This document shows, one piece after another, positions 8,386-22,795 of a DNA stretch of 32,000 nucleotides. The stretch comes from Candidatus Thorarchaeota archaeon (GTDB taxonomy: Archaea; Asgardarchaeota; Thorarchaeia; Thorarchaeales; Thorarchaeaceae). A model generated the notes under the pieces. It saw only the letters and a list, made by a program, of their open reading frames with translations, searched no databases and was not told the DNA's origin. Made by a program: the position numbers and the translations under genes. The stretch spans positions 1,387 to 33,386 of the forward strand of contig PRDJ01000061.1 in the NCBI GenBank assembly GCA_003345555.1, given 5' to 3'. Within the stretch, counting starts at the first letter, position 1. Every line of letters begins with the position of its first letter.

Positions 8386-8404
8386 AGGGGGTATCTTACC
8401 CCCT
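8386..8404. terminator. Hairpin between convergent genes (AGGGGGTA-TCT-TACCCCCT)
   Basis: Perfect 8-bp inverted repeat overlapping the stop of the DHH gene, between convergent ORFs. Confidence 0.4.
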
Positions 8405-9922
8405 GCCCTCACTTTTTCTTTCGTCGGTTGACTGCAGGGATTTTGCGATCAGGTCTGATACTATTTCTAGGAATTCTTTCAGATAGTCAGAGTGTACAAA
8501 CGCACCAGCCGCCATGGGATGACCCCCTCCTTCTGCAACCATCGTTCCATATCTATCATTCAAGGATTTGCTGGCAGACACGAAGACTTCTCTCAGGTTG
8601 ACGCCCCTCTTCACAAGACTGCGGGCGGCGCGGCCAGATATCTTCAGCATAGGACCTTCGCCCGACACCTTGGTACTTACTCCAATCACCGGCTTGTCTG
8701 TAGGAACGATTCTCGACCCCTGAGCCATGCCTATCACTACACCTACAATGGTGTCAGGTGTTTCTGGATCCATGACGAGATACATCCCCGGTCTTTCCTC
8801 AACACCACCTGTCTCAAGACGCCGCAGCGCGCTAGCTAAGTTGGCACGGTGTTGCTGGAGTAGAGTCTGTCCTTCCCGCCAAGCCTCTAAGTCTCCGAAG
8901 CATATTCTGACACCCACCTCAGGTTTCTTGTTCCTTCCGCACGCGTTCAGCAGAGTCGAGAACTCTTTCGCAGTCCTGAGCTCCGTCCTCGGTGGGCGCC
9001 TGACAAGCGTCATCACGTCACCGATGATACCAGTGGCGGCTTTGGGGTTCTCATAACTTTGAAGAATCGAATCAATTAGCTTCTGAATTACCCGTCTCTT
9101 CTCGTCGGGCTTCAAATCGGCCCATGTTCTCCAGATGTCCTCACTGTCCTTCAATGGGATGCCCAACTCATCAAAGAACGCAAAACACCCGTCCCTGTTG
9201 CCGGTGATTCCGGGAAGGTAGGGGTCTGTCGTAAACTCCAACAGGAACGGCAGCGGCCTTGTGCTTATCCCGAAGAATGTGAGGTCCTTGTGCACCTTGA
9301 CGTAGCCATGTTGTTCTGCCAGAGCTATTATCTCCTTGTTCAAACCTGAAAACCCGCGACCATAGTAATCTTGAAGGTCACCCGTTGCGCCCACGACTGC
9401 CAGTTCGCTGAGATCGACGTTCTCAGTTGATATCGCGTATGCAACCAAGAATGCCAAGCCTGCCCCTGAGAGTTCGGAACTCCCGATCATACCATGCTGA
9501 CAAGGGTTCACTTCGATGATGCCTTGCTCGTTCTTCTCGCGCCAAGAATCCGGGTCTTCATCAGATGGAATATGATGGTCTAGAACGATGATGGCCTCGA
9601 TGCCCGGTTGGCCTTGGATGTTCTCTCGCACAAGACTCATCTGACCAGACCCAAAGTCGGTGAATATGACCAAGTCTGGTTGTAACTCTCCCACGAGGGT
9701 CTTAACTTCTAGGACGGTCTCGGAGCTCAGCTGGTGGATGTTTCTCCAAGATGTTTTCTTGCCGAGTCGCTCGAGCGTTGTGACCACTATGGCCAGAGAA
9801 GTTATCCCATCTGCATCTATGTGTGAGATTGCAAGGATCTTTGTGGAATTCCTAACAGCGCTGGCGGCTCTGTTCACTTGGTCTCGCAGTGAATCCGGCT
9901 GTACGAAGCTGAGTCTCTCCAT
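8396..9922 (-). CDS. recJ: Archaeal RecJ-like DHH/DHHA1 nuclease (GAN/Cdc45-related family)
   Basis: SHIDADG, TDFGS, LDHH, GATGDLQ, LLNACGR and DHHA1 GGGHPMAAG motifs are all intact. Confidence 0.92.
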   Translation of the reverse strand: MERLSFVQPDSLRDQVNRAASAVRNSTKILAISHIDADGITSLAIVVTTLERLGKKTSWRNIHQLSSETVLEVKTLVGELQPDLVIFTDFGSGQMSLVRENIQGQPGIEAIIVLDHHIPSDEDPDSWREKNEQGIIEVNPCQHGMIGSSELSGAGLAFLVAYAISTENVDLSELAVVGATGDLQDYYGRGFSGLNKEIIALAEQHGYVKVHKDLTFFGISTRPLPFLLEFTTDPYLPGITGNRDGCFAFFDELGIPLKDSEDIWRTWADLKPDEKRRVIQKLIDSILQSYENPKAATGIIGDVMTLVRRPPRTELRTAKEFSTLLNACGRNKKPEVGVRICFGDLEAWREGQTLLQQHRANLASALRRLETGGVEERPGMYLVMDPETPDTIVGVVIGMAQGSRIVPTDKPVIGVSTKVSGEGPMLKISGRAARSLVKRGVNLREVFVSASKSLNDRYGTMVAEGGGHPMAAGAFVHSDYLKEFLEIVSDLIAKSLQSTDERKSEGRG

Positions 9923-10025
9923 GAACCTACAATCAGCCTCCTGCCCAAGTTATCATTTAAGCTGAGCGCTATGGAATAGCATTCTGGCGAGTATGCTTCG
10001 AGATGGGGCGACACGGTCCGGGAAC

Positions 10026-10544
10026 TCAGCGTGCCTTGGCAATCTCACGCTGCCAGTCTCTAAGATCATCACGCAGCTTCTTCAGGTCATTGGCACTGAT
10101 AGGATCGATGCGATTATAGGTTCTCAGAATCCTAGTCCATCGCTGTATCCTGACTACGAGAGCACCCCCGCTCCCTCCCTGCTCAAGAGTCTCCGCAGCT
10201 TCGTTTATCTTCAGGGCCAAGTCACTAGCAATTGCTCCTTCTCTTATTTGGGAGTCAAGCGTGTCAAGAACGGCCTGAAGAGCTGACGCTGCCGAACGGG
10301 GTTCAGCAGCCGCCGAAGATGGTGCAGACACAGCTCCCGCCGGGGTCCTCCGTGTGCCTTGTAATACCTCTTCGAGTCTCTTGTTGTTAGTAGCGACTGC
10401 ATTAGAGATCTGGGCCACGGTGTCTTGAATTTCCCCAATTCTCGACACTACCTCAATCATGCGATTCAGTGTGTCGGCCAAACGCTCAAGCGACGTGCTA
10501 ATCTCTGCAAGCTTGGCTCGCACGTAGGTGTCATGTTCACTCAT
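10026..10544 (-). CDS. Coiled-coil protein with putative Vps28-like C-terminal four-helix bundle
   Basis: Residues 1-63 heptad coiled coil, 64-84 Ala/Pro/Ser linker, 85-172 four amphipathic helices aligning by eye with the Vps28 CTD (see findings). The CDS is well supported; the fold call is inference. Confidence 0.8.
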   Translation of the reverse strand: MSEHDTYVRAKLAEISTSLERLADTLNRMIEVVSRIGEIQDTVAQISNAVATNNKRLEEVLQGTRRTPAGAVSAPSSAAAEPRSAASALQAVLDTLDSQIREGAIASDLALKINEAAETLEQGGSGGALVVRIQRWTRILRTYNRIDPISANDLKKLRDDLRDWQREIAKAR

Positions 10545-10702
10545 GTACTTCCCTCATATGGCACGGCATAATATGCTATGAACGGGGGCTAGGAGTCTGG
10601 CCAGTCTGATTAAACTTTCTATGCGCTGAGTAGTTTATGATTGAGTTCAAGACAGGGAGCAGGCCACCTAAGGAGCACGCAGCCTAAGGCTCTGCAAAAA
10701 CC

Positions 10703-12897: not shown

Positions 12898-14829
12898 TCA
12901 GAATTGCAGGAAAGGTTTCCCCAAGATTACTCGATCTAGTAGGTGACTTATGGTCGCCTTTTCAACGATTTCCTCGAAACGCTTCTTGAGCCTGCCACCG
13001 TCAACATATTCAGGCTCAAGTATCCCAGCGCTCTTGACTACCTCTTGGAGGATGTAATCGAACTCGTAGCTCAGATACTCGGTTGGCTTGCCGGTCTTCT
13101 CGTTCGGTGCAACAACCTTCTTCGCAAGGCCCTGGGAAATTGCAGTCTTGGTTTCCTTCAGGTATGTTGACATTGCCCGCTCATATTCGAAGTTCTTGGC
13201 CTTCACCAGCTCCTTCAGGAATGGTAGACCGAAGGTGGTTCTGGCGACAGCCTCGATTCTAGCTATGAATGCGTTCATTATGTCGTCATACGAAACCGCT
13301 CCAAGCTTGCCGCGAGTTGCGAATATCTTATCTGTCTCCTTGACTGACTTGAGCTTGGCCCTCTTCTCGTCGAGGACTCTCGCCCTCTCCTTCTCTTGCC
13401 GCTTTCGCTCCTCTTCCCGGGCCTTCTCTTCTTCGCGTGCCTTGCGTTCTGCCTCTTTGCGTCTCTCTTCCGCGGAGCGAGCTTTCTCTAATTCCTCGAG
13501 TAGCCGTTGCTGTTCCTTCACCATCGCGGCCATGTGTTTCTGTACGTCCTGCTCTGTGAGTGTCACATGATTCGTCAATAGCCATCGTACGGCCATTTGG
13601 CTAACCTTTGGGGCCATGTCTGCTGACGAGAATATGAAGGAGGCAACTTCCTGACCAGGGAGAGCCTTTATGATTGACTCTGATTCCCTTTCTCCCGCGA
13701 TGGGCTCAAGGATCCTCTCCAAGACCTTTAGTGACTGTTCGCTGCTTATTCGTCCAGTGGCGATTGTATTGAACTGCTCGAATGCCTTGTAGTCGATATC
13801 CTTCGGGCTTTGAGTGGAAATCACACATTCAATACCATATTTCCTTGCCTGGCGGAACAGCAAGAGATAGATCTCCTTCGGGCCGGGCGCCCTCATGCCA
13901 GCCGGGATGAATGGTGCGGCTTCGTCTTGGTATATTACCAGTTTCGGTCTCTCTGTATAGCCCTGCTTCAGCATCCAAGAATATAGTTGATTCAGGACAA
14001 TAGAGATGAAGAAATGCTTCTCTTCTTCGCTCCTTAATGTCTTAAGAAACAGGACGTTGATTGGCGTCTTCCCATTTACCGGCTTGGTCAACTCGTCGAA
14101 ATCTAGTTGGCCCTCCTCCCGGAACAGCAACTGAGATGAGCCTACGGTCAAGCTCCGAAGGGCCGCCGCAAGTTTCTGCCTTTCGCTCACCTTCATGAAT
14201 GGCTCAAGATCGACACCCACAGATTCTTTGTCAGCAACGAGCATGTCAGCGAGCTCGCCAAGGCCCTTGATTTTGACCTTGTTCTGCCACTTGACTCGAA
14301 TGAGCTCGTACACGGCAGCAAAGGACTTGCTCTCCCAAGTGGATGTAAGACCAGCTACTTTCAGAAGAACCTTGACAAGAGTTCTCGCCGAGTTGTCCAG
14401 TAAGCGAATCATGTCATCAGGGTCGGCCTTCTCATCAGGCAGACTCAGGGGATTAATGGAAACGGACAAGCCCTTGCTACTAGCAGGTGTGTAGACTCGC
14501 ACTATGACCTTGTCCAAGTATTGCTTGAGGCGAGAGGAAGGTACTCCCTTTGATTCGAGGACTTTCGGATCGCCGGGCAGCATCAACGATGCAATATCGC
14601 CCTGAGGGTCGAATGCAAGAACTGGGATCCCCTGCATTGCCGCCTCTTCGAGAATGACTTTGCCCAGTACCGTCTTTCCAGAGCCTGTTGACCCGAAGAT
14701 GCCCCCATGACGCCTTAGCAAATCAGTGCTTATCTCAAAACGTTCGTCGGTCTTGTTTCCCTGGGAATCCAGCTTGTAACCCAGCCATAATCCGTCTTTC
14801 GTCATCGAAAGCACCATCTTGAACCGCAT
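12898..14829 (-). CDS. HerA/DUF87-like P-loop ATPase with ER/K-rich helical arm and C-terminal domain
   Basis: Walker A GSTGSGKT, FDPQGD, Walker B IYQDEA, arginine-finger region RQARKYG, sensor STQSP. There is no N-terminal HAS barrel. Confidence 0.88.
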   Translation of the reverse strand: MRFKMVLSMTKDGLWLGYKLDSQGNKTDERFEISTDLLRRHGGIFGSTGSGKTVLGKVILEEAAMQGIPVLAFDPQGDIASLMLPGDPKVLESKGVPSSRLKQYLDKVIVRVYTPASSKGLSVSINPLSLPDEKADPDDMIRLLDNSARTLVKVLLKVAGLTSTWESKSFAAVYELIRVKWQNKVKIKGLGELADMLVADKESVGVDLEPFMKVSERQKLAAALRSLTVGSSQLLFREEGQLDFDELTKPVNGKTPINVLFLKTLRSEEEKHFFISIVLNQLYSWMLKQGYTERPKLVIYQDEAAPFIPAGMRAPGPKEIYLLLFRQARKYGIECVISTQSPKDIDYKAFEQFNTIATGRISSEQSLKVLERILEPIAGERESESIIKALPGQEVASFIFSSADMAPKVSQMAVRWLLTNHVTLTEQDVQKHMAAMVKEQQRLLEELEKARSAEERRKEAERKAREEEKAREEERKRQEKERARVLDEKRAKLKSVKETDKIFATRGKLGAVSYDDIMNAFIARIEAVARTTFGLPFLKELVKAKNFEYERAMSTYLKETKTAISQGLAKKVVAPNEKTGKPTEYLSYEFDYILQEVVKSAGILEPEYVDGGRLKKRFEEIVEKATISHLLDRVILGKPFLQF

Positions 14830-16953: not shown

Positions 16954-17778
16954 ATGAATTGGTTGGCCAAGATTGTGAAGGGAAAACCCGACGAGTACGT
17001 TCATGCCAAGCTCGTGAAGTATGGCATTGGGACATATCCGGGTCCCAGGACAGTCATAGGGCTCAGCCAAGGACGAATTGCATTCAAGGCGGACTTTGAT
17101 CATGAGAGGATGTTTGTAGAGGGTTACCTCAAGTTTGCACCAAGAGGCATGCACAAAGTCTCCGGTACAATTGTGACCTATACCGATCGTAAGTCGGCAT
17201 TCGCAGGCCTCACTCTCCCGCTTTCGTGGACCAAGTCGAAGGGAGAAGGCGCGACTGTTTTCAAAGCCAAACTAAGCGAAGCAGCGCCCATCGAAGACCT
17301 CCGGGCGTTGCTGGAAGCGGATGACCCGACCACGTTCCTTCTGCTGTCTATGAGCCCACGTGAAGGGACAAAGCCCTGGACCATAACCACCAAATCGTCA
17401 TTTCCTAAGGTGACCTTCGCAAAGGGTGCATCAGGAAAGGCAGAAGACAGCGGGGCAGATGAAAAGGGCGAAGAGGAAGAAGAGCCGGAATCCAAGCAAA
17501 AGGACCCCACATTCTGCAAGGGTGCTTATTCGAACACACCCGAAATCCTCGAATTTGTGTTGAGTGAGGCTATACCAGATCTGATATCCGAGGTAACTCC
17601 CAAGTCGAAGAACATTGAGATTGATCATCAGATCGTGATTGACAGGATTGTTGTTCCAGAGGACGATAAGCTACCGTTCTCCGAGAAAAGAAGGCTTGCC
17701 AGAAAGACAGGTAAGCTTGTCCGAAAGATTACAATTGACGGAAAGACTACGAACAAAGAGTACCCCTTCACAGCATAG
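16954..17778 (+). CDS. Conserved archaeal hypothetical protein with an acidic low-complexity insert
   Basis: Long clean ORF, ATG start. The N- and C-termini (DEYVHAKLVKY; IDRIVVPED...RRLARKTGKLVRKITIDG) resemble an uncharacterised archaeal family I recall, unverified. Confidence 0.8.
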   Translation: MNWLAKIVKGKPDEYVHAKLVKYGIGTYPGPRTVIGLSQGRIAFKADFDHERMFVEGYLKFAPRGMHKVSGTIVTYTDRKSAFAGLTLPLSWTKSKGEGATVFKAKLSEAAPIEDLRALLEADDPTTFLLLSMSPREGTKPWTITTKSSFPKVTFAKGASGKAEDSGADEKGEEEEEPESKQKDPTFCKGAYSNTPEILEFVLSEAIPDLISEVTPKSKNIEIDHQIVIDRIVVPEDDKLPFSEKRRLARKTGKLVRKITIDGKTTNKEYPFTA

Positions 17779-18173: not shown

Positions 18174-19346
18174 TTGAGCGACCATGAAATCGAGACCCTT
18201 GCAGCAGCCAGCGGACAGAGGCTTGTTCGGGAGTTTGCTGACAAGTACGCCAATCTGAGAGAGAGGGTCCGAAGACTGCCAATGGCGGAAGCAAAGGAAA
18301 CCTCAACTCAGCTTTCGTGCCCATTGGAAGTCGCACAGGTCGCTTCCCTGGTCAACCTAGATGGTATCCTGAGCGCCAAAGAGGCAGTAGGCATAATATC
18401 AGGCGAACTGCAGCGAAGAGCAACTGTCGGAGAGGATGTTCCCAACATATCAAGCAACATCTTGGATTTCTCGTTGGTCGAAGGCAGATGGATTGAGTAC
18501 ATCTATGGCAGTTTCGCTAGAGAACTGGAATTGAAGACCAGAGAGCTTTCGAACCTTGAGTCCGCTGCAGAATCTGAGAATATCACTGTCGAGAAGGCAC
18601 TCATTATTCTCAATGCAAGAACTAAACTGGCCGAGGGCTTCATCATGCCAGCAATACGGGCTTGGCTCGCGGAGCATCCCAAATCCAACAGCGAGGATCT
18701 GTTGATGGCCTTCGGACCTGCTGTAACCAAGTGGAAGCCCAGTACTCTGAAGGGGAAACTACTTCAGCTTCGAAGAAGGAACCAAGCCATGTTCAGACAA
18801 CTGAGGACGGCCCTTACGTCAGCTTCTGAATCGGCAACGGTGGACGCCACAATGGCCCGGATTGACAGCCTTGTGGATGGACTAGGCGCAGATATGAGCA
18901 GAATGAGTCCGAATGTCGTAGCCCATTTTATAGTTCATATTGCTCCAAGGCCAACGGGCAGAGGAGACAAATCCCGCTATGTAGAGGTGGGGGTCAGTTC
19001 AACCCGAGGAGACAAGACCGAGCCGGACATGGCTTCCCCATTCGATTTCCTAGAGAGAGATGTCCGCCTTGCGCGACGGCGCTCAGGTGCTGACCAGACG
19101 GCATATCTCAATGAACACATATCTCGCGTAATTCGTGTTCTGAAATATCAAGGGAATTCCATCTCAGATTGTGTAGAGAGGTGTGTACTCGAAATCCGTG
19201 AACGTCTGCATTTGCAGAATGCACCAGCCAGTGAAATCATCGAGAAGGCAAAGGCAGAGCTTGCTGACGCGCCAGCTGAACAAAGGGATGAGATTGCGAC
19301 AAGAATCGTGTCTGACTTCATCAATTCCTACGTCATTGTCGGGTGA
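18174..19346 (+). CDS. Hypothetical all-helical protein (390 aa)
   Basis: Long ORF; TTG start about 10 nt after AAGGAG, with an in-frame stop just upstream; 6 bp to the next gene. Confidence 0.8.
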   Translation: MSDHEIETLAAASGQRLVREFADKYANLRERVRRLPMAEAKETSTQLSCPLEVAQVASLVNLDGILSAKEAVGIISGELQRRATVGEDVPNISSNILDFSLVEGRWIEYIYGSFARELELKTRELSNLESAAESENITVEKALIILNARTKLAEGFIMPAIRAWLAEHPKSNSEDLLMAFGPAVTKWKPSTLKGKLLQLRRRNQAMFRQLRTALTSASESATVDATMARIDSLVDGLGADMSRMSPNVVAHFIVHIAPRPTGRGDKSRYVEVGVSSTRGDKTEPDMASPFDFLERDVRLARRRSGADQTAYLNEHISRVIRVLKYQGNSISDCVERCVLEIRERLHLQNAPASEIIEKAKAELADAPAEQRDEIATRIVSDFINSYVIVG

Positions 19347-19352
19347 CAATCA

Positions 19353-20123
19353 ATGGAACACGGACCAATCTTCTGGCTGCTCGGCATCGAAGCATACGAC
19401 TACGATGTCGGGGTCTTGCGTGGGACCGATTTGAAAGGGAAAGCCTTGATCCTCTCCCGACAGCTCTGGTCGATAATCCGAGGAGAGACGGTCATTTCCG
19501 TTCTAATTGGACCGGGAGTCTTCAAGGGAGTAGCGACTATCGGAAACCGAAGGGTCGAAATACTGGAACCGTTGCTGGCATTGATGTTTGATCCGACCCA
19601 TATGCGGGCTGACGAGCCTGTACCACTTGTTGATATTATCTCTCCCGAAGTGATTGATCCGTTGGCAAGCCGCAAGACGGAAGAAATCATGACCACAATC
19701 CGTCAGCTCGTCATTGAACGAGGTAATGTATTGGCGGCTGAACCACTCATGAAGATGAGAACGGACGCTAATGTCCCAACAACAGCATACGCAATGGATT
19801 TGCTGAAGAAGATTCATGTAGCTCACGTGTCTGGCACGCAGAGGGCCAGATTCATTCTTGCAGGCACCAACAGCCCGATGTACCGGCCTCTTGTAGATTG
19901 GTACAAGAAACGGAAATACGACGAACCCGCGCGCATCAAGGTTATGGCCATGCCTTTCAACAAATTCAGCAGTTCGGTGGACATAGAGACTATGTCTGAC
20001 TGGACAATCGTAGAGAAGGCAGGCATCGATGGGAATTCCGGAATCGAGGCCATTCATGAAGAATATGAGCAGACTCTTGGTGGCTTGCGGGAAAACGAGA
20101 GCCTGTTCATATACGAAGTTTGA
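19353..20123 (+). CDS. Hypothetical alpha/beta protein (256 aa)
   Basis: Long ORF in operon position; its stop overlaps the helicase start (TTGA). Confidence 0.8.
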   Translation: MEHGPIFWLLGIEAYDYDVGVLRGTDLKGKALILSRQLWSIIRGETVISVLIGPGVFKGVATIGNRRVEILEPLLALMFDPTHMRADEPVPLVDIISPEVIDPLASRKTEEIMTTIRQLVIERGNVLAAEPLMKMRTDANVPTTAYAMDLLKKIHVAHVSGTQRARFILAGTNSPMYRPLVDWYKKRKYDEPARIKVMAMPFNKFSSSVDIETMSDWTIVEKAGIDGNSGIEAIHEEYEQTLGGLRENESLFIYEV

Positions 20124-22795
20124 AAACTGAAAAGGCTCCATGCCTAGGAACCTTGTTCTGTGAGGCCACTGCAGTGGAGGTCGTAGACGCAGAGATAAAG
20201 AAGCGACTTTCTGAGCCATACGTACTCCTGCTCAGACGCGCAAGGCAGGAGATGGCTACACTAGTAGGGGTCTTCTCCGAGGTCTTGTCAGATAGACAGC
20301 GAGCATCTCTCACGGGAATGGTCGAATACGGGTACAGAGCCGCAGGCCTGCTTGAAATCAAGCGTGCATATTTCATCAGATACAACAAGCCCGTGTACTT
20401 TCAAGAGAGGGAGTTCCATGAGATACTCAGGAAAGCAAACAATATTCTCATCCCTGGCAAAGAAGTCCCGTCGTTCATAGAAGACCTACGGACCTTTCTT
20501 GCTCGCATTCAGACAGCCCGACCAAGGATTGTCCCCGTCTGTCCAACCTGCTTGCGTGATGATCGCCTCACTGTTCTCTCTCGGAGAAACGCAGTGAAGG
20601 TGTCTGAAAGCCAAGTCTCATGTATCAGCTGCGCGCAAAGCGACCTCAAGACTGAACTCAAGAATATGGGCATCACATTGTCCCGGGCCATGGTCGTCCA
20701 GCTTGAGCGGCAAGTCTCGCGAGTCAAGTCCGTGCCGAGGCTTCTGGAGATGCTGACACCGGGTTTCGACCCGACGCGGGAAAGAGAGTTGACACTGTTT
20801 GACACTATCTCTGTCGGCGAAAGCGGCCCGGTGCAACATATATCCGCTCTACCAATTCCAGAGGAGCTTGCTCGGCTGCTTCAAGCCGAAGGCATCCAGA
20901 ATCTGCTTCCTGTCCAGCAATTGGCCGTCGAATCTGGCTTGCTACGCAATGCTAGTCTCTTGGTAGTATCATCCACTTCATCAGGAAAGACGCTAATCGC
21001 GGAACTTGCAGGCATACCGAAAGCAGTGGCGGGTGAGAGGCTGATCTATATTGCTCCTCTCGTTGCTCTCACTAACGAGAAGTATGAGCAGTTCAGAAAA
21101 CGATACCGGGCGCTCGGATTGCGCACGGGGATAAGAGTGGGCATGTCTCGCCTCGATGTGGGAAACGAAGGCAGGCCAATCGTAGACACGGACATATCCA
21201 AGGCAGACATCATATGTGCCACATACGAAGCATTGGATACGCTATTTCGCTCAGGGGAGTCTGCGCAGCTAGACAAGGTCGGTACGATAGTAGTAGACGA
21301 GATTCAGAACCTAGCAGACCCCGAGAGAGGACCTGAGCTTGACGGATTGGTGGCAAGGCTGAGATACCATGCTCCCCGCGCTCAAATCCTCTGTTTATCT
21401 GCCACTGTCGGAACTCCAGAGAATCTGGCGAAGGAACTCAAGCTGACCTTAGTTAATCACACTGGCAGACCTGTACCATTGGAACGTCATCTGGTCTTCG
21501 CTCATAGTGAAGAAGACAAACGAGAAGTAATCCGCAGACTTGTCCTTCAGGAATTTCACAATACGAGTAGTGCGGGGTTCAAGGGGCAGTCCATCGTGTT
21601 CACCTATTCACGACGCCGGGCACATGCCTTGAGCGATTGGCTGCGTGAGAACGGGACTTCATCCACCGTCTATCATGGAGGTCTTACTTACAGCCGCAGG
21701 CGTCACGTTGAATCAGCATACTCTAAACAGCGCTATGCATGCGTTGTCACCACCGCAGCTCTAGGAGCCGGAGTGGACTTGCCAGCATCTCAAGTCATAT
21801 TCGAGTCTCTCGCGATGGGCTCAGACTGGTTGACAAACGCTGAGTTCGAACAGATGCTCGGTCGGGCAGGTCGCCTCGGCAAACACGACAATGGGCTCGT
21901 CTACCTCCTAGTTCAGCCTGAGCGGAAATATCACAGTGGGCAAGAGAGAACAGAAGATGAAGTGGCGGTCGATCTTCTCAACGGTGTAGTGGAGAATGTT
22001 GAACCGACATCGGATATCGAAGCCTGCGCCGAACAGATACTCGCCACAATATGCTCGACAGGGCTGATTGACTTCAAGGACGTTGCGCGTGCCTACAACG
22101 ACATGCTCTCGACCACTGTTCCCGCTTCGGAGGCGCTGAAGTATCTAGTCCGGCACCACATGATAAGAGTTCAAGACAACGGGGTCTACCCCACAGAACT
22201 GGGCAAAGCCACATCCGTCTCTTTTCTGACTCCGAGCGAAGGGTTGGATGTTCTGAAACACATTGAAACCATGGATGTCTTGGATACAGCCATCAGGCTC
22301 GAGCCATTTGATAATGTGTACTTGAGCGCGAAGCTGCAGGCCGAGGTAGATGCTGCATTTAAGACTCATATGCCAACTCGTCTGTTCTCAGGAGTCATGT
22401 CCGACCTCGCCGACTTCGGCCACCAGCGGGAAAGTCACGCCAAATTCCCGGGATGGGTCTACGAAGTGTTCAGTCGGTGGATAGCAGAGATATTCAACTG
22501 CGGCTGCCGCGATTTTCCGGAATGTGACCACGGCATGATAAGGCTTGGCAGGTGGATTGTAGAACGAAGGAAGGAGGGCTTAAATCCATCTGGCATTGCC
22601 AAGCGCTTGCACGACGATTTTGAACTCTGGGCATATCCAGGAGACTTGTTCACGTGGCTGGACTCTCTGATTCATAACCTCAAAGCAGTTCAGCGAATCG
22701 CGGCCATTGCAGGCAAGACGGACTTAGGCGTACAGATTGACAGTCAGATAGCAAGGATCGAACGTCCACTCGAACCAGTCGAAGTCAAAGAGTGA
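20120..22795 (+). CDS. Archaeal SF2 DEAD/DEAH-box helicase, COG1202/DUF5814 type
   Basis: Q-motif LLPVQ, Walker A STSSGKT, DEIQ, SAT, YHGGL, QMLGRAGR; N-terminal CPTC...CISC; C-terminal CGCRDFPECDHG...YPGDLFTWLD. Confidence 0.92.
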   Translation: MKTEKAPCLGTLFCEATAVEVVDAEIKKRLSEPYVLLLRRARQEMATLVGVFSEVLSDRQRASLTGMVEYGYRAAGLLEIKRAYFIRYNKPVYFQEREFHEILRKANNILIPGKEVPSFIEDLRTFLARIQTARPRIVPVCPTCLRDDRLTVLSRRNAVKVSESQVSCISCAQSDLKTELKNMGITLSRAMVVQLERQVSRVKSVPRLLEMLTPGFDPTRERELTLFDTISVGESGPVQHISALPIPEELARLLQAEGIQNLLPVQQLAVESGLLRNASLLVVSSTSSGKTLIAELAGIPKAVAGERLIYIAPLVALTNEKYEQFRKRYRALGLRTGIRVGMSRLDVGNEGRPIVDTDISKADIICATYEALDTLFRSGESAQLDKVGTIVVDEIQNLADPERGPELDGLVARLRYHAPRAQILCLSATVGTPENLAKELKLTLVNHTGRPVPLERHLVFAHSEEDKREVIRRLVLQEFHNTSSAGFKGQSIVFTYSRRRAHALSDWLRENGTSSTVYHGGLTYSRRRHVESAYSKQRYACVVTTAALGAGVDLPASQVIFESLAMGSDWLTNAEFEQMLGRAGRLGKHDNGLVYLLVQPERKYHSGQERTEDEVAVDLLNGVVENVEPTSDIEACAEQILATICSTGLIDFKDVARAYNDMLSTTVPASEALKYLVRHHMIRVQDNGVYPTELGKATSVSFLTPSEGLDVLKHIETMDVLDTAIRLEPFDNVYLSAKLQAEVDAAFKTHMPTRLFSGVMSDLADFGHQRESHAKFPGWVYEVFSRWIAEIFNCGCRDFPECDHGMIRLGRWIVERRKEGLNPSGIAKRLHDDFELWAYPGDLFTWLDSLIHNLKAVQRIAAIAGKTDLGVQIDSQIARIERPLEPVEVKE

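What the first reader, a model, noticed from the sequence alone, without database searches (positions are those of the whole stretch)
10026..10544. Orphan coiled-coil protein carrying a Vps28 (ESCRT-I)-like C-terminal bundle
Seen: a three-part architecture of about 60-aa coiled coil, Ala/Pro/Ser linker and 88-aa four-helix domain. Inference from by-eye alignment to human VPS28 as I recall it: VLDTLDSQIRE ~ LFITVMDKLRL; SDLALKINEAAETLEQ ~ DEIQPDLRELMETMHR; IQRWTRILRTYNRIDPISANDLKKLRDDLRDWQREI ~ VSQWLQTLSGMSASDELDDSQVRQMLFDLESAYNAF. The last segment is gap-free and keeps the W, the D-x-hydrophobic loop and the DL. Established: the Vps28 CTD links ESCRT-I to ESCRT-II/III, and Vps28-like genes are known in Asgards, typically in ESCRT gene clusters. 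Here there are no ESCRT, Vps4 or ubiquitin neighbours, and the N-terminus is a plain coiled coil more like a Vps23/Vps37 stalk. It could be a minimal one-gene ESCRT-I adaptor (homo-oligomeric stalk plus recruiting head) or a repurposed Vps28 domain.
Basis: partly seen in the sequence, partly recalled or inferred. Interest (0 to 1): 0.78.

Follow-up and report, generated by a model that had tools for sequence, protein, structure and literature searches.

The report
Coiled-coil protein with Vps28-C domain
This small Thorarchaeota gene encodes a long coiled-coil helix tied by a floppy linker to a divergent copy of the four-helix bundle that ends the eukaryotic ESCRT-I protein Vps28; it is a conserved lineage-specific family, not an orphan, and domains of this kind are already known in Asgard archaea.

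Summary
The ORF (10026-10544, minus strand, 172 aa) and its three-part build are real. It has a heptad coiled-coil helix (residues 3-65), a disordered Ala/Ser/Pro linker and a four-helix bundle (85-171).

"Orphan" is wrong. At least 184 homologues exist, in 42/43 genomes of the window's own family. A full-length paralogue family (B, 334+ proteins) also exists, with one copy in this genome.

The Vps28 C-terminal domain (Vps28-C) reading holds:
- Vps28-C is the top Foldseek PDB hit for two models (TM 0.82).
- It gives the top two ESM-Atlas clusters, and ranks first (tied with HPt) by VIA-align.
- hhalign against 20-21 Asgard Vps28 proteins gives E about 5e-5 over the whole domain; 0/400 shuffles reached that score.

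It is not a Vps28 orthologue. It has no steadiness-box N-domain, no Pfam hit, and lies outside the ESCRT cluster on another contig.

Thorarchaeota lack canonical Vps28. Makarova et al. 2024 list a Thor "BAR-SB" protein with a Vps28-C hit, probably paralogue B. This scan reached the same reading earlier on other genomes.

New here: in 15/16 sister genera the gene is followed by a tail-anchored membrane protein, which was not found in this genus. ESCRT-II binding is inferred, not shown.

The parts
10026..10544 (-). Whole ORF (172 codons plus stop): family-A coiled-coil / Vps28-C protein
   Evidence: 184 homologues; conserved from residue 1
10350..10538 (-). Residues 3-65: single long heptad coiled-coil helix, the most conserved part (T6 Y7 R9 A10 K11 L12 I15 R21 L22 L26 N27 R28 invariant)
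   Evidence: AF2 pLDDT 80-95; 3.5-residue periodicity; invariant columns; homologous to the N-terminus of paralogue B, hhalign P 7.9e-8
10293..10349 (-). Residues 66-84: disordered Ala/Ser/Pro-rich linker, variable in sequence and length (much longer in paralogue B)
   Evidence: pLDDT below 50; alignment; composition; B lengths 210-277 aa
10032..10292 (-). Residues 85-171: four-helix up-down bundle, a divergent Vps28 C-terminal domain (Vps28-C)
10551..10555 (-). GAGGG, Shine-Dalgarno-like, 6 nt upstream of the ATG at 10544; supports the long start rather than Met29
   Evidence: read directly from the sequence; inference
8396..9922 (-). Co-directional downstream neighbour: RecJ/GAN/Cdc45-like DHH, DHH-CID, DHHA1 protein (508 aa). 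It is a conserved neighbour; a functional link is not shown
   Evidence: Pfam; adjacency in 16/16 loci of the same family

Best explanation
The gene encodes a member of a protein family restricted to Thorarchaeales (family A, about 172 aa). It has a full-length paralogue family B of 210-277 aa. Each protein is a coiled-coil helix, a flexible linker and a divergent but homologous copy of the Vps28 C-terminal four-helix bundle (Vps28-C). It is not an ESCRT-I Vps28 orthologue, because it lacks the steadiness-box hairpin. Most likely mechanism (inferred, not shown): the strongly conserved N-terminal helix pairs with itself, with paralogue B or with another partner. This places two or more Vps28-C heads on flexible tethers. 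The heads would contact ESCRT-II (the Vps22 homodimer, or Vps25) or ESCRT-III, as Vps28-C does in eukaryotes. That would give Thorarchaeota an upstream route into their ESCRT-II/III/Vps4 machinery without ubiquitin or ESCRT-I. These archaea have no canonical Vps28, no UEV-Vps23 and no ubiquitin. In most sister genera a tail-anchored membrane protein encoded directly downstream would place the system at a membrane. Shown: the architecture, family distribution, fold and sequence kinship of the C-domain, and gene contexts. Inferred: oligomerisation, ESCRT binding and membrane association.

For: Sequence evidence. hhalign of the A+B C-domains against 20-21 Asgard Vps28 proteins gives probability 64-69% and E 4.4e-5 to 6.8e-5. 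About 90 columns align colinearly onto the Vps28 CTD only. Controls: reversed profiles score 15; 200 column shuffles reach at most 22.7; 200 heptad-block shuffles reach at most 26.4; the observed score is 33.3. An unrelated Vps22 profile gives P 0.26. The Asgard set is genuine Vps28: it hits 2j9w at E 1.6e-12. Shared motif: W136 matches the invariant Vps28 Trp, D153-x-K-K-L matches eeDakkL, and W164 matches the second Vps28 Trp.

Distribution. The family profile is found in 42/43 genomes of the own family and 1/1 of the sister family. It is found in 0 of the other Asgard families, apart from two weak hits. PF03997 passes its cut-off in 134/201 Asgard genomes but in none of the 43 own-family genomes.

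The genome keeps ESCRT-II, ESCRT-III and Vps4.

Context. Paralogue B is flanked by two Ras-like GTPase genes. A tail-anchored membrane protein gene follows family A in 15/16 genera.

Literature. Vps28-C occurs in many Asgard multidomain proteins. A Thor protein, KXH73277.1, has an HHpred 84% hit to 2J9U_A (PMC10936438, Table S3). Hatano et al. list no Thor Vps28 and no Thor ubiquitin (PMC9192718).
Confidence: 0.55

Rival explanations
1. The protein has a true Vps28-C-derived domain that was repurposed away from ESCRT. It works with its conserved neighbours, for example as an accessory or scaffold of the RecJ/GAN (Cdc45-like) nuclease or of DNA repair.
For: The pair A -> RecJ-like is co-directional in 16/16 loci of the own family, down to 38% protein identity. 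In the sister family the gene lies directly after uvrC. A HerA-like ATPase belongs to the same conserved block. No ESCRT gene lies within 32 kb.
Against: All loci come from one order, so conserved order may be inherited rather than selected. In most genera a membrane-protein gene lies between A and recJ. Paralogue B sits among small GTPase genes, not DNA genes. The two DNA-related neighbours differ between lineages. No DNA-binding or GINS-like feature was seen in Pfam or fold searches.
Confidence: 0.2
2. It is the Thorarchaeal orthologue of Vps28 itself. It is a genuine ESCRT-I subunit whose N-terminal steadiness-box hairpin has been remodelled into one long helix that still docks onto other steadiness boxes, such as that of Vps22 or the 546-aa protein beside ESCRT-III.
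For: It has the same order of parts as Vps28: a helical N-domain, a linker, then the CTD. Its distribution is complementary to canonical Vps28 across 201 Asgard genomes. The best, though insignificant, Vps23_core match in the whole genome falls on residues 26-66.
Against: The N-terminal region has no detectable similarity to the Vps28 N-domain or to the steadiness box of Thor Vps22 (P 0.08-0.14). AF2 models one uninterrupted helix, not a hairpin. The gene is outside the ESCRT cluster. The family has duplicated into A and B, unlike Vps28.
Confidence: 0.15
3. The C-terminal bundle is an unrelated up-down four-helix bundle that merely converges on the Vps28-C geometry. The protein is a generic coiled-coil protein of unknown role.
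Against: Vps28-C comes first in four searches of three libraries, with a clear TM gap in two of them. The profile-profile score lies more than 5 SD above heptad-preserving shuffles and aligns end to end on the CTD only. The Trp, D-x-KKL and second Trp are shared with Asgard Vps28. An independent HHpred hit of 84% is published for a Thor relative.
Confidence: 0.1

Closest known systems
Vps28, ESCRT-I subunit (Pfam PF03997; CTD structures 2J9U, 2J9V, 2J9W, 2G3K)
   Same: The C-terminal ~90-residue four-helix bundle has the same topology and size (rmsd 1.9-2.1 over 92-93 residues). It shares the Trp in helix 3, the loop, the D-x-KKL start of helix 4 and, with Asgard Vps28, the second Trp. The domain sits at the C-terminus after a flexible linker.
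   Different: It has no steadiness-box/core N-domain, scores below any Pfam threshold, is not in the ESCRT gene cluster, and exists as two paralogues. Its N-terminus is one heptad coiled-coil helix.
Thorarchaeota protein KXH73277.1, labelled 'BAR-SB' (Makarova et al. 2024, mBio, PMC10936438, Table S3 and Fig. 6B)
   Same: It comes from the same lineage. It has an N-terminal helical region and a C-terminal segment (155-235) that hits 2J9U_A at 84% HHpred probability. Its length and domain positions fit paralogue family B, whose N- and C-domains are both homologous to this protein (hhalign P 7.9e-8 and 7.4e-10).
   Different: I could not confirm by accession that it is family B, because no accessions were returned. 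This 172-aa form has a far shorter helical N-region of 63 residues. That is too short for the three-helix BAR fold suggested for the longer protein.
Asgard multidomain proteins carrying Vps28-C (with adaptin-appendage, longin, PCI and other domains; Makarova et al. 2024)
   Same: The Vps28-C module is used outside ESCRT-I and is presumed to reach ESCRT-II directly. Atlas structural neighbours include several large Asgard proteins.
   Different: Here the only added module is a coiled coil, and the family is confined to Thorarchaeales.
Histidine phosphotransfer (HPt) domains, e.g. CheA P1 (1TQG)
   Different: No conserved histidine exists anywhere in the family, and there is no sequence signal or two-component gene context.

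Membership tests
Vps28 (ESCRT-I subunit, PF03997) | C-terminal four-helix bundle (Vps28-C) | tested here: met
Vps28 (ESCRT-I subunit, PF03997) | N-terminal core / steadiness-box helical hairpin that builds the ESCRT-I headpiece | tested here: not met
   AF2 gives a single helix at 3-65. hhalign of the N-region against Asgard Vps28 gives P 0.12-0.13, and against the Thor Vps22 steadiness box P 0.08-0.14
Vps28 (ESCRT-I subunit, PF03997) | Score above the Pfam gathering threshold (24.5 bits) | tested here: not met
   No PF03997 hit at E<=1. The whole-genome scan lists only two other places, best 17.4 bits
Vps28 (ESCRT-I subunit, PF03997) | Encoded with vps22/vps23-like genes in the Asgard ESCRT cluster | tested here: not met
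   The ESCRT cluster (Vps22, Vps25, Vps4, ESCRT-III) is on contig C42; this gene is on C61. No ESCRT family is found in the window
Vps28 (ESCRT-I subunit, PF03997) | CTD binds ESCRT-II (Vps36/Vps22) or Vps20 | not testable with these tools
   Needs pull-down or two-hybrid assays with Thor Vps22, Vps25 and ESCRT-III
Asgard Vps28-C domain proteins outside ESCRT-I (Makarova et al. 2024) | A Vps28-C module detected by profile-profile or structure comparison, joined to non-ESCRT-I modules | tested here: met
   for the module; the coiled coil is the only other module; published precedent in Thor
HPt domain (PF01627) | Conserved phospho-accepting histidine on helix 2 | tested here: not met
   No histidine among the invariant or nearly invariant columns of A1 or A2; no Pfam Hpt hit
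BAR domain | About 200-residue three-helix crescent that dimerises | tested here: not met
   The N-terminal helical region is one helix of 63 residues followed by disorder; no BAR family in Pfam at E<=1
Vps23/Vps37 core (PF09454) | Score above the gathering threshold (26.8 bits) for the core hairpin | tested here: not met
   14.4 bits, E 0.039, residues 26-66; 12.1 bits, E 0.46 in the genome scan

The most novel reading that the evidence does not exclude
Families A and B pair through their conserved N-terminal helices into a two-headed stalk. This stalk would be the Thorarchaeal replacement for ESCRT-I. It would be recruited by a tail-anchored membrane protein (family A) and by Ras-like GTPases (family B) rather than by ubiquitin. 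Its Vps28-C heads would hand the site to the Vps22/Vps25 ESCRT-II complex. That would be a ubiquitin-independent, GTPase-gated entry into an archaeal ESCRT pathway.
Probability: 0.15. Interest if true: 0.7.

Novelty: new member of a known kind. Interest (0 to 1): 0.36.

Why it matters
Thorarchaeota are the Asgard lineage that keeps ESCRT-II, ESCRT-III and Vps4 but lacks ubiquitin, UEV-Vps23 and canonical Vps28. How their ESCRT machinery is recruited is therefore an open question. A conserved pair of paralogues carrying only a coiled coil and the ESCRT-II-contacting module of Vps28 is the obvious candidate for that missing upstream link. One paralogue is encoded beside a tail-anchored membrane protein and the other beside small GTPases. 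The proteins are small and soluble-looking, so binding and structural tests are easy. However, the domain identification itself is not new in kind. Vps28-C modules in unusual contexts have been described in Asgard archaea, and a Thor relative is already listed in a published supplementary table.

Tried and rejected
1. Pfam hmmscan of the protein and of distant homologues gave no PF03997 hit at E<=1, only coiled-coil noise such as Syntaxin, MCPsignal and Vps23_core at 14 bits.
2. hmmsearch of the family profiles against PDB sequences found no Vps28. The full-length profile (A1) gave only coiled-coil proteins. The C-domain profile (A2) gave nothing below E 0.5.
3. Complex prediction of the C-domain alignment with the genome's Vps22 alignment scored 0.00, 'no answer'. 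This is neither support nor evidence against.
4. The look-up of sequencing runs listed no RNA holder. Only wetland metagenome DNA runs appeared, some of which may be the source.
5. The N-terminal helix compared with the Vps28 N-domain and the Vps22 steadiness box gave no signal.
6. I tried to tie KXH73277.1 to paralogue family B by accession, but the listing of cluster members returned no accessions. The link rests on length and domain positions only.
7. The HPt reading was rejected because there is no conserved histidine. The BAR reading was rejected for this short form because it has only one 63-residue helix.
8. The tail-anchored neighbour protein was searched for in the own genome and own genus and not found with this query. 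The genome is 93% complete, and 0/4 genomes of the genus had it.
9. The bacterial-type promoter/terminator scan was not used, because it is not suited to archaea.

Full report
**Observation**

The minus strand of the window carries an ATG-started ORF at 10026-10544 encoding 172 residues. A GAGGG lies 6 nt upstream of the ATG. AlphaFold2 on a 41-member alignment (mean pLDDT 75) predicts three parts:
- one uninterrupted helix at residues 3-65 (pLDDT 80-95);
- a segment 67-85 with pLDDT below 50;
- four helices at 85-102, 106-122, 127-141 and 151-171.

Hydrophobic residues in 8-64 show their strongest periodicity at 3.5 residues, so this is a heptad coiled coil. The linker 64-86 has 8 Ala, 4 Ser and 3 Pro among 23 residues. 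The described three-part build is therefore real.

**Not an orphan**

A word-indexed search found 184 proteins at E<=0.01. Where named, most are from Candidatus Thorarchaeota MAGs. They are mostly 170-176 aa and 49-78% identical over the full length. An exhaustive HMMER scan of 1.84 billion cluster representatives added only a few more distant clusters: 37-38% identity at 172-173 aa, and 25-28% at 214-270 aa.

The longer proteins are a second family (B) with 334+ members, again from Thorarchaeota. Both domains are homologous between A and B: hhalign P 7.9e-8 for the N-helices and 7.4e-10 for the C-domains. This genome has one B copy, on contig C6.

Across 201 Asgard genomes the family-A profile is found as follows:
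- 42/43 genomes of the window's own family;
- 1/1 genome of the sister family in the same order;
- none elsewhere, apart from two weak hits (E about 0.003).

The N-terminal 28 residues are almost invariant. The 144-aa record of this very locus, which starts at Met29 (P0002), is therefore a truncated gene call.

**Is the C-domain a Vps28 C-terminal domain?**

Single-profile methods say nothing. There is no PF03997 hit at E<=1, and no Vps28 among the PDB sequence hits of either family profile.

Fold searches point to Vps28 each time.
- Foldseek against 350,542 PDB chains ranks Xenopus Vps28 CTD (2j9w) first for the full model.
- It ranks it first again for a domain-only model built from an A+B alignment (pLDDT 81, pTM 0.69). 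The hit has prob 1.00, TMq 0.82 and rmsd 1.9 over 93 columns. The next family, Psb27, is at TM 0.56.
- In the ESM Atlas the two nearest clusters are both PF03997 Vps28 (TM 0.82 and 0.80, all 94 residues aligned). The next cluster is at 0.68.

For a sequence test I extracted 21 Asgard Vps28 proteins from a PF03997 genome scan. They are genuine: their profile hits 2j9w at E 1.6e-12 and yeast CTD and N-domain structures at 1e-5 to 1e-6.
- hhalign of the A+B C-domains against them gives probability 64-69% and E 4.4e-5 to 6.8e-5. About 90 columns align colinearly onto the Vps28 CTD and nowhere else.
- Family A alone gives P 2.3e-4. Family B alone gives P 0.15.
- Controls against the observed score of 33.3: reversed profiles score 15; 200 column shuffles reach at most 22.7; 200 heptad-block shuffles have mean 16.2, SD 3.1 and maximum 26.4. 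An unrelated helical profile (Vps22) gives P 0.26.

The aligned motif is specific:
- W136 falls on the invariant Vps28 Trp;
- D153-x-K155-K156-L157 falls on the eeDakkL start of helix 4;
- W164 falls on the second, nearly invariant Asgard Vps28 Trp.

W pairs with W, D147 with D, and D160-L161 with the D-L of FDLE. W136 and D153 are invariant in both A and B. D147 and D160 are invariant in A.

I put the homology of the C-domain with Vps28-C at about 0.8-0.85.

**Not a Vps28 orthologue**

- The N-region is one helix, not a steadiness-box hairpin.
- It has no similarity to the Vps28 N-domain or to the steadiness box of Thor Vps22 (P 0.08-0.14).
- The Vps23_core hit is 14.4 bits against a cut-off of 26.8.
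- The gene is not in the ESCRT cluster.

**ESCRT inventory of this genome**

The genome is 2.28 Mb and 93% complete. Contig C42 carries four ESCRT genes:
- Vps22, which is a steadiness box plus EAP30;
- Vps25;
- Vps4;
- one ESCRT-III.

A second ESCRT-III lies on C39. No Vps23 core was found. PF03997 passes its cut-off in 134/201 Asgard genomes but in none of the 43 genomes of the own family. The only weak hits there are the steadiness box of Vps22.

This matches the literature. Hatano et al. 2022 list SB, Vps22, Vps25, ESCRT-III and Vps4 for Thor but no Vps28, and they note the lack of ubiquitin (PMC9192718).

**Prior knowledge**

Makarova et al. 2024 (PMC10936438) make three relevant points:
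- Vps28-C occurs in many Asgard multidomain proteins and may reach ESCRT-II without ESCRT-I.
- Asgard Vps22 carries a steadiness box.
- Table S3 lists Thorarchaeota protein KXH73277.1 ('BAR-SB') with residues 155-235 hitting 2J9U_A at 84%.

By length and domain positions that protein fits paralogue B. I could not verify this by accession.

This scan also reached the same reading earlier on other genomes (e1-5383611, e1-5448262). The finding is therefore a new member of a known kind, not a new kind.

**Gene context**

In all 16 loci examined from the own family the order is cupin, read divergently from A, then A followed co-directionally by the RecJ-like gene. This holds down to 38% protein identity. 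In the sister family the gene follows uvrC and no RecJ-like gene is nearby.

In other genera the A-to-RecJ gap is about 600 bp. It holds a conserved ORF of 103-118 aa with a C-terminal transmembrane tail and no Pfam family. That gene is present in 15/16 genera and lies directly after A wherever coordinates can be compared. It was not found in any of the four genomes of this genus. In this window the gap is only 103 bp.

Paralogue B lies between two Ras-like GTPase genes and a CBS gene, both here and on an unrelated contig.

**Mechanism**

The best-supported reading is a multivalent adaptor. A conserved coiled-coil helix pairs with itself, with B or with another partner. Vps28-C heads on flexible linkers then contact ESCRT-II/III, at a membrane site set by the tail-anchored protein or by GTPases. 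Only the architecture, kinship and contexts are shown. Binding, oligomerisation and membrane association are inferred.

Rivals:
- a repurposed domain serving the RecJ/DNA-repair neighbourhood (0.2);
- a remodelled true Vps28 orthologue (0.15);
- a convergent bundle (0.1).

**Verdict**

Interest is moderate (0.36).

Noticed in passing
L003:6696-7007 and L054:4455-4811 (other Thorarchaeota); window gap 9923-10025: A conserved tail-anchored membrane protein of 103-118 aa (C-terminal transmembrane tail ending in SRVARGSD, no Pfam family) is encoded directly after the family-A gene. It is present in 15/16 genera (33/41 genomes). It was not found in the four genomes of this genus. In this window the A-to-RecJ gap is only 103 bp.
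   Followed up: partly
window 10461-10544 (residues 1-28): The protein collection's own record for this locus (P0002, 144 aa) starts at Met29. The 28 residues upstream are nearly invariant across the family and are preceded by GAGGG. The public gene call is therefore N-terminally truncated.
   Followed up: yes
L047:8065-8706 (-) = G000:C6:39064-39705: The paralogue-B copy of this genome (214 aa) is flanked by two Ras/Roc-type small GTPase genes (L047:7020-7619 and 8880-9485) and a CBS-pair gene. The same CBS plus GTPase neighbours occur on an unrelated metagenome contig (L004).
   Followed up: partly
L048:5722-10879 = G000:C42, about 53.7-58.9 kb: This is the ESCRT cluster of the genome: Vps22 (steadiness box plus EAP30), Vps25, Vps4 (409 aa), ESCRT-III, then a 546-aa ORF with no Pfam family. 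That ORF may correspond to the 'SB' protein ThorAB25_08990 used by Hatano et al.
   Followed up: partly
G000:C39:65225-65608 (inside an 800-aa ORF): A large protein carries Vps22-like winged-helix domains (33-36% identity to Vps22 residues 113-242). It is conserved at about 780-850 aa in most genomes of the family.
   Followed up: no
window 12898-14829 (-): A HerA-like ATPase (DUF87, HerA_C) has a long, highly charged Glu/Lys/Arg coiled-coil insert at about residues 420-510. It is part of the conserved gene block around the finding, with no NurA, Mre11 or Rad50 nearby.
   Followed up: no
L049:4075-6482 and L052:3-872 (sister family): In the sister family the family-A gene sits directly downstream of uvrC instead of upstream of the RecJ-like gene. 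Both contexts pair it with a DNA-processing enzyme.
   Followed up: partly
window 20120-22795 (+): An 891-aa DEAD/Helicase_C protein ends in DUF5814. Several neighbouring ORFs (16954-17778, 18174-19346, 19353-20123) have no Pfam family.
   Followed up: no
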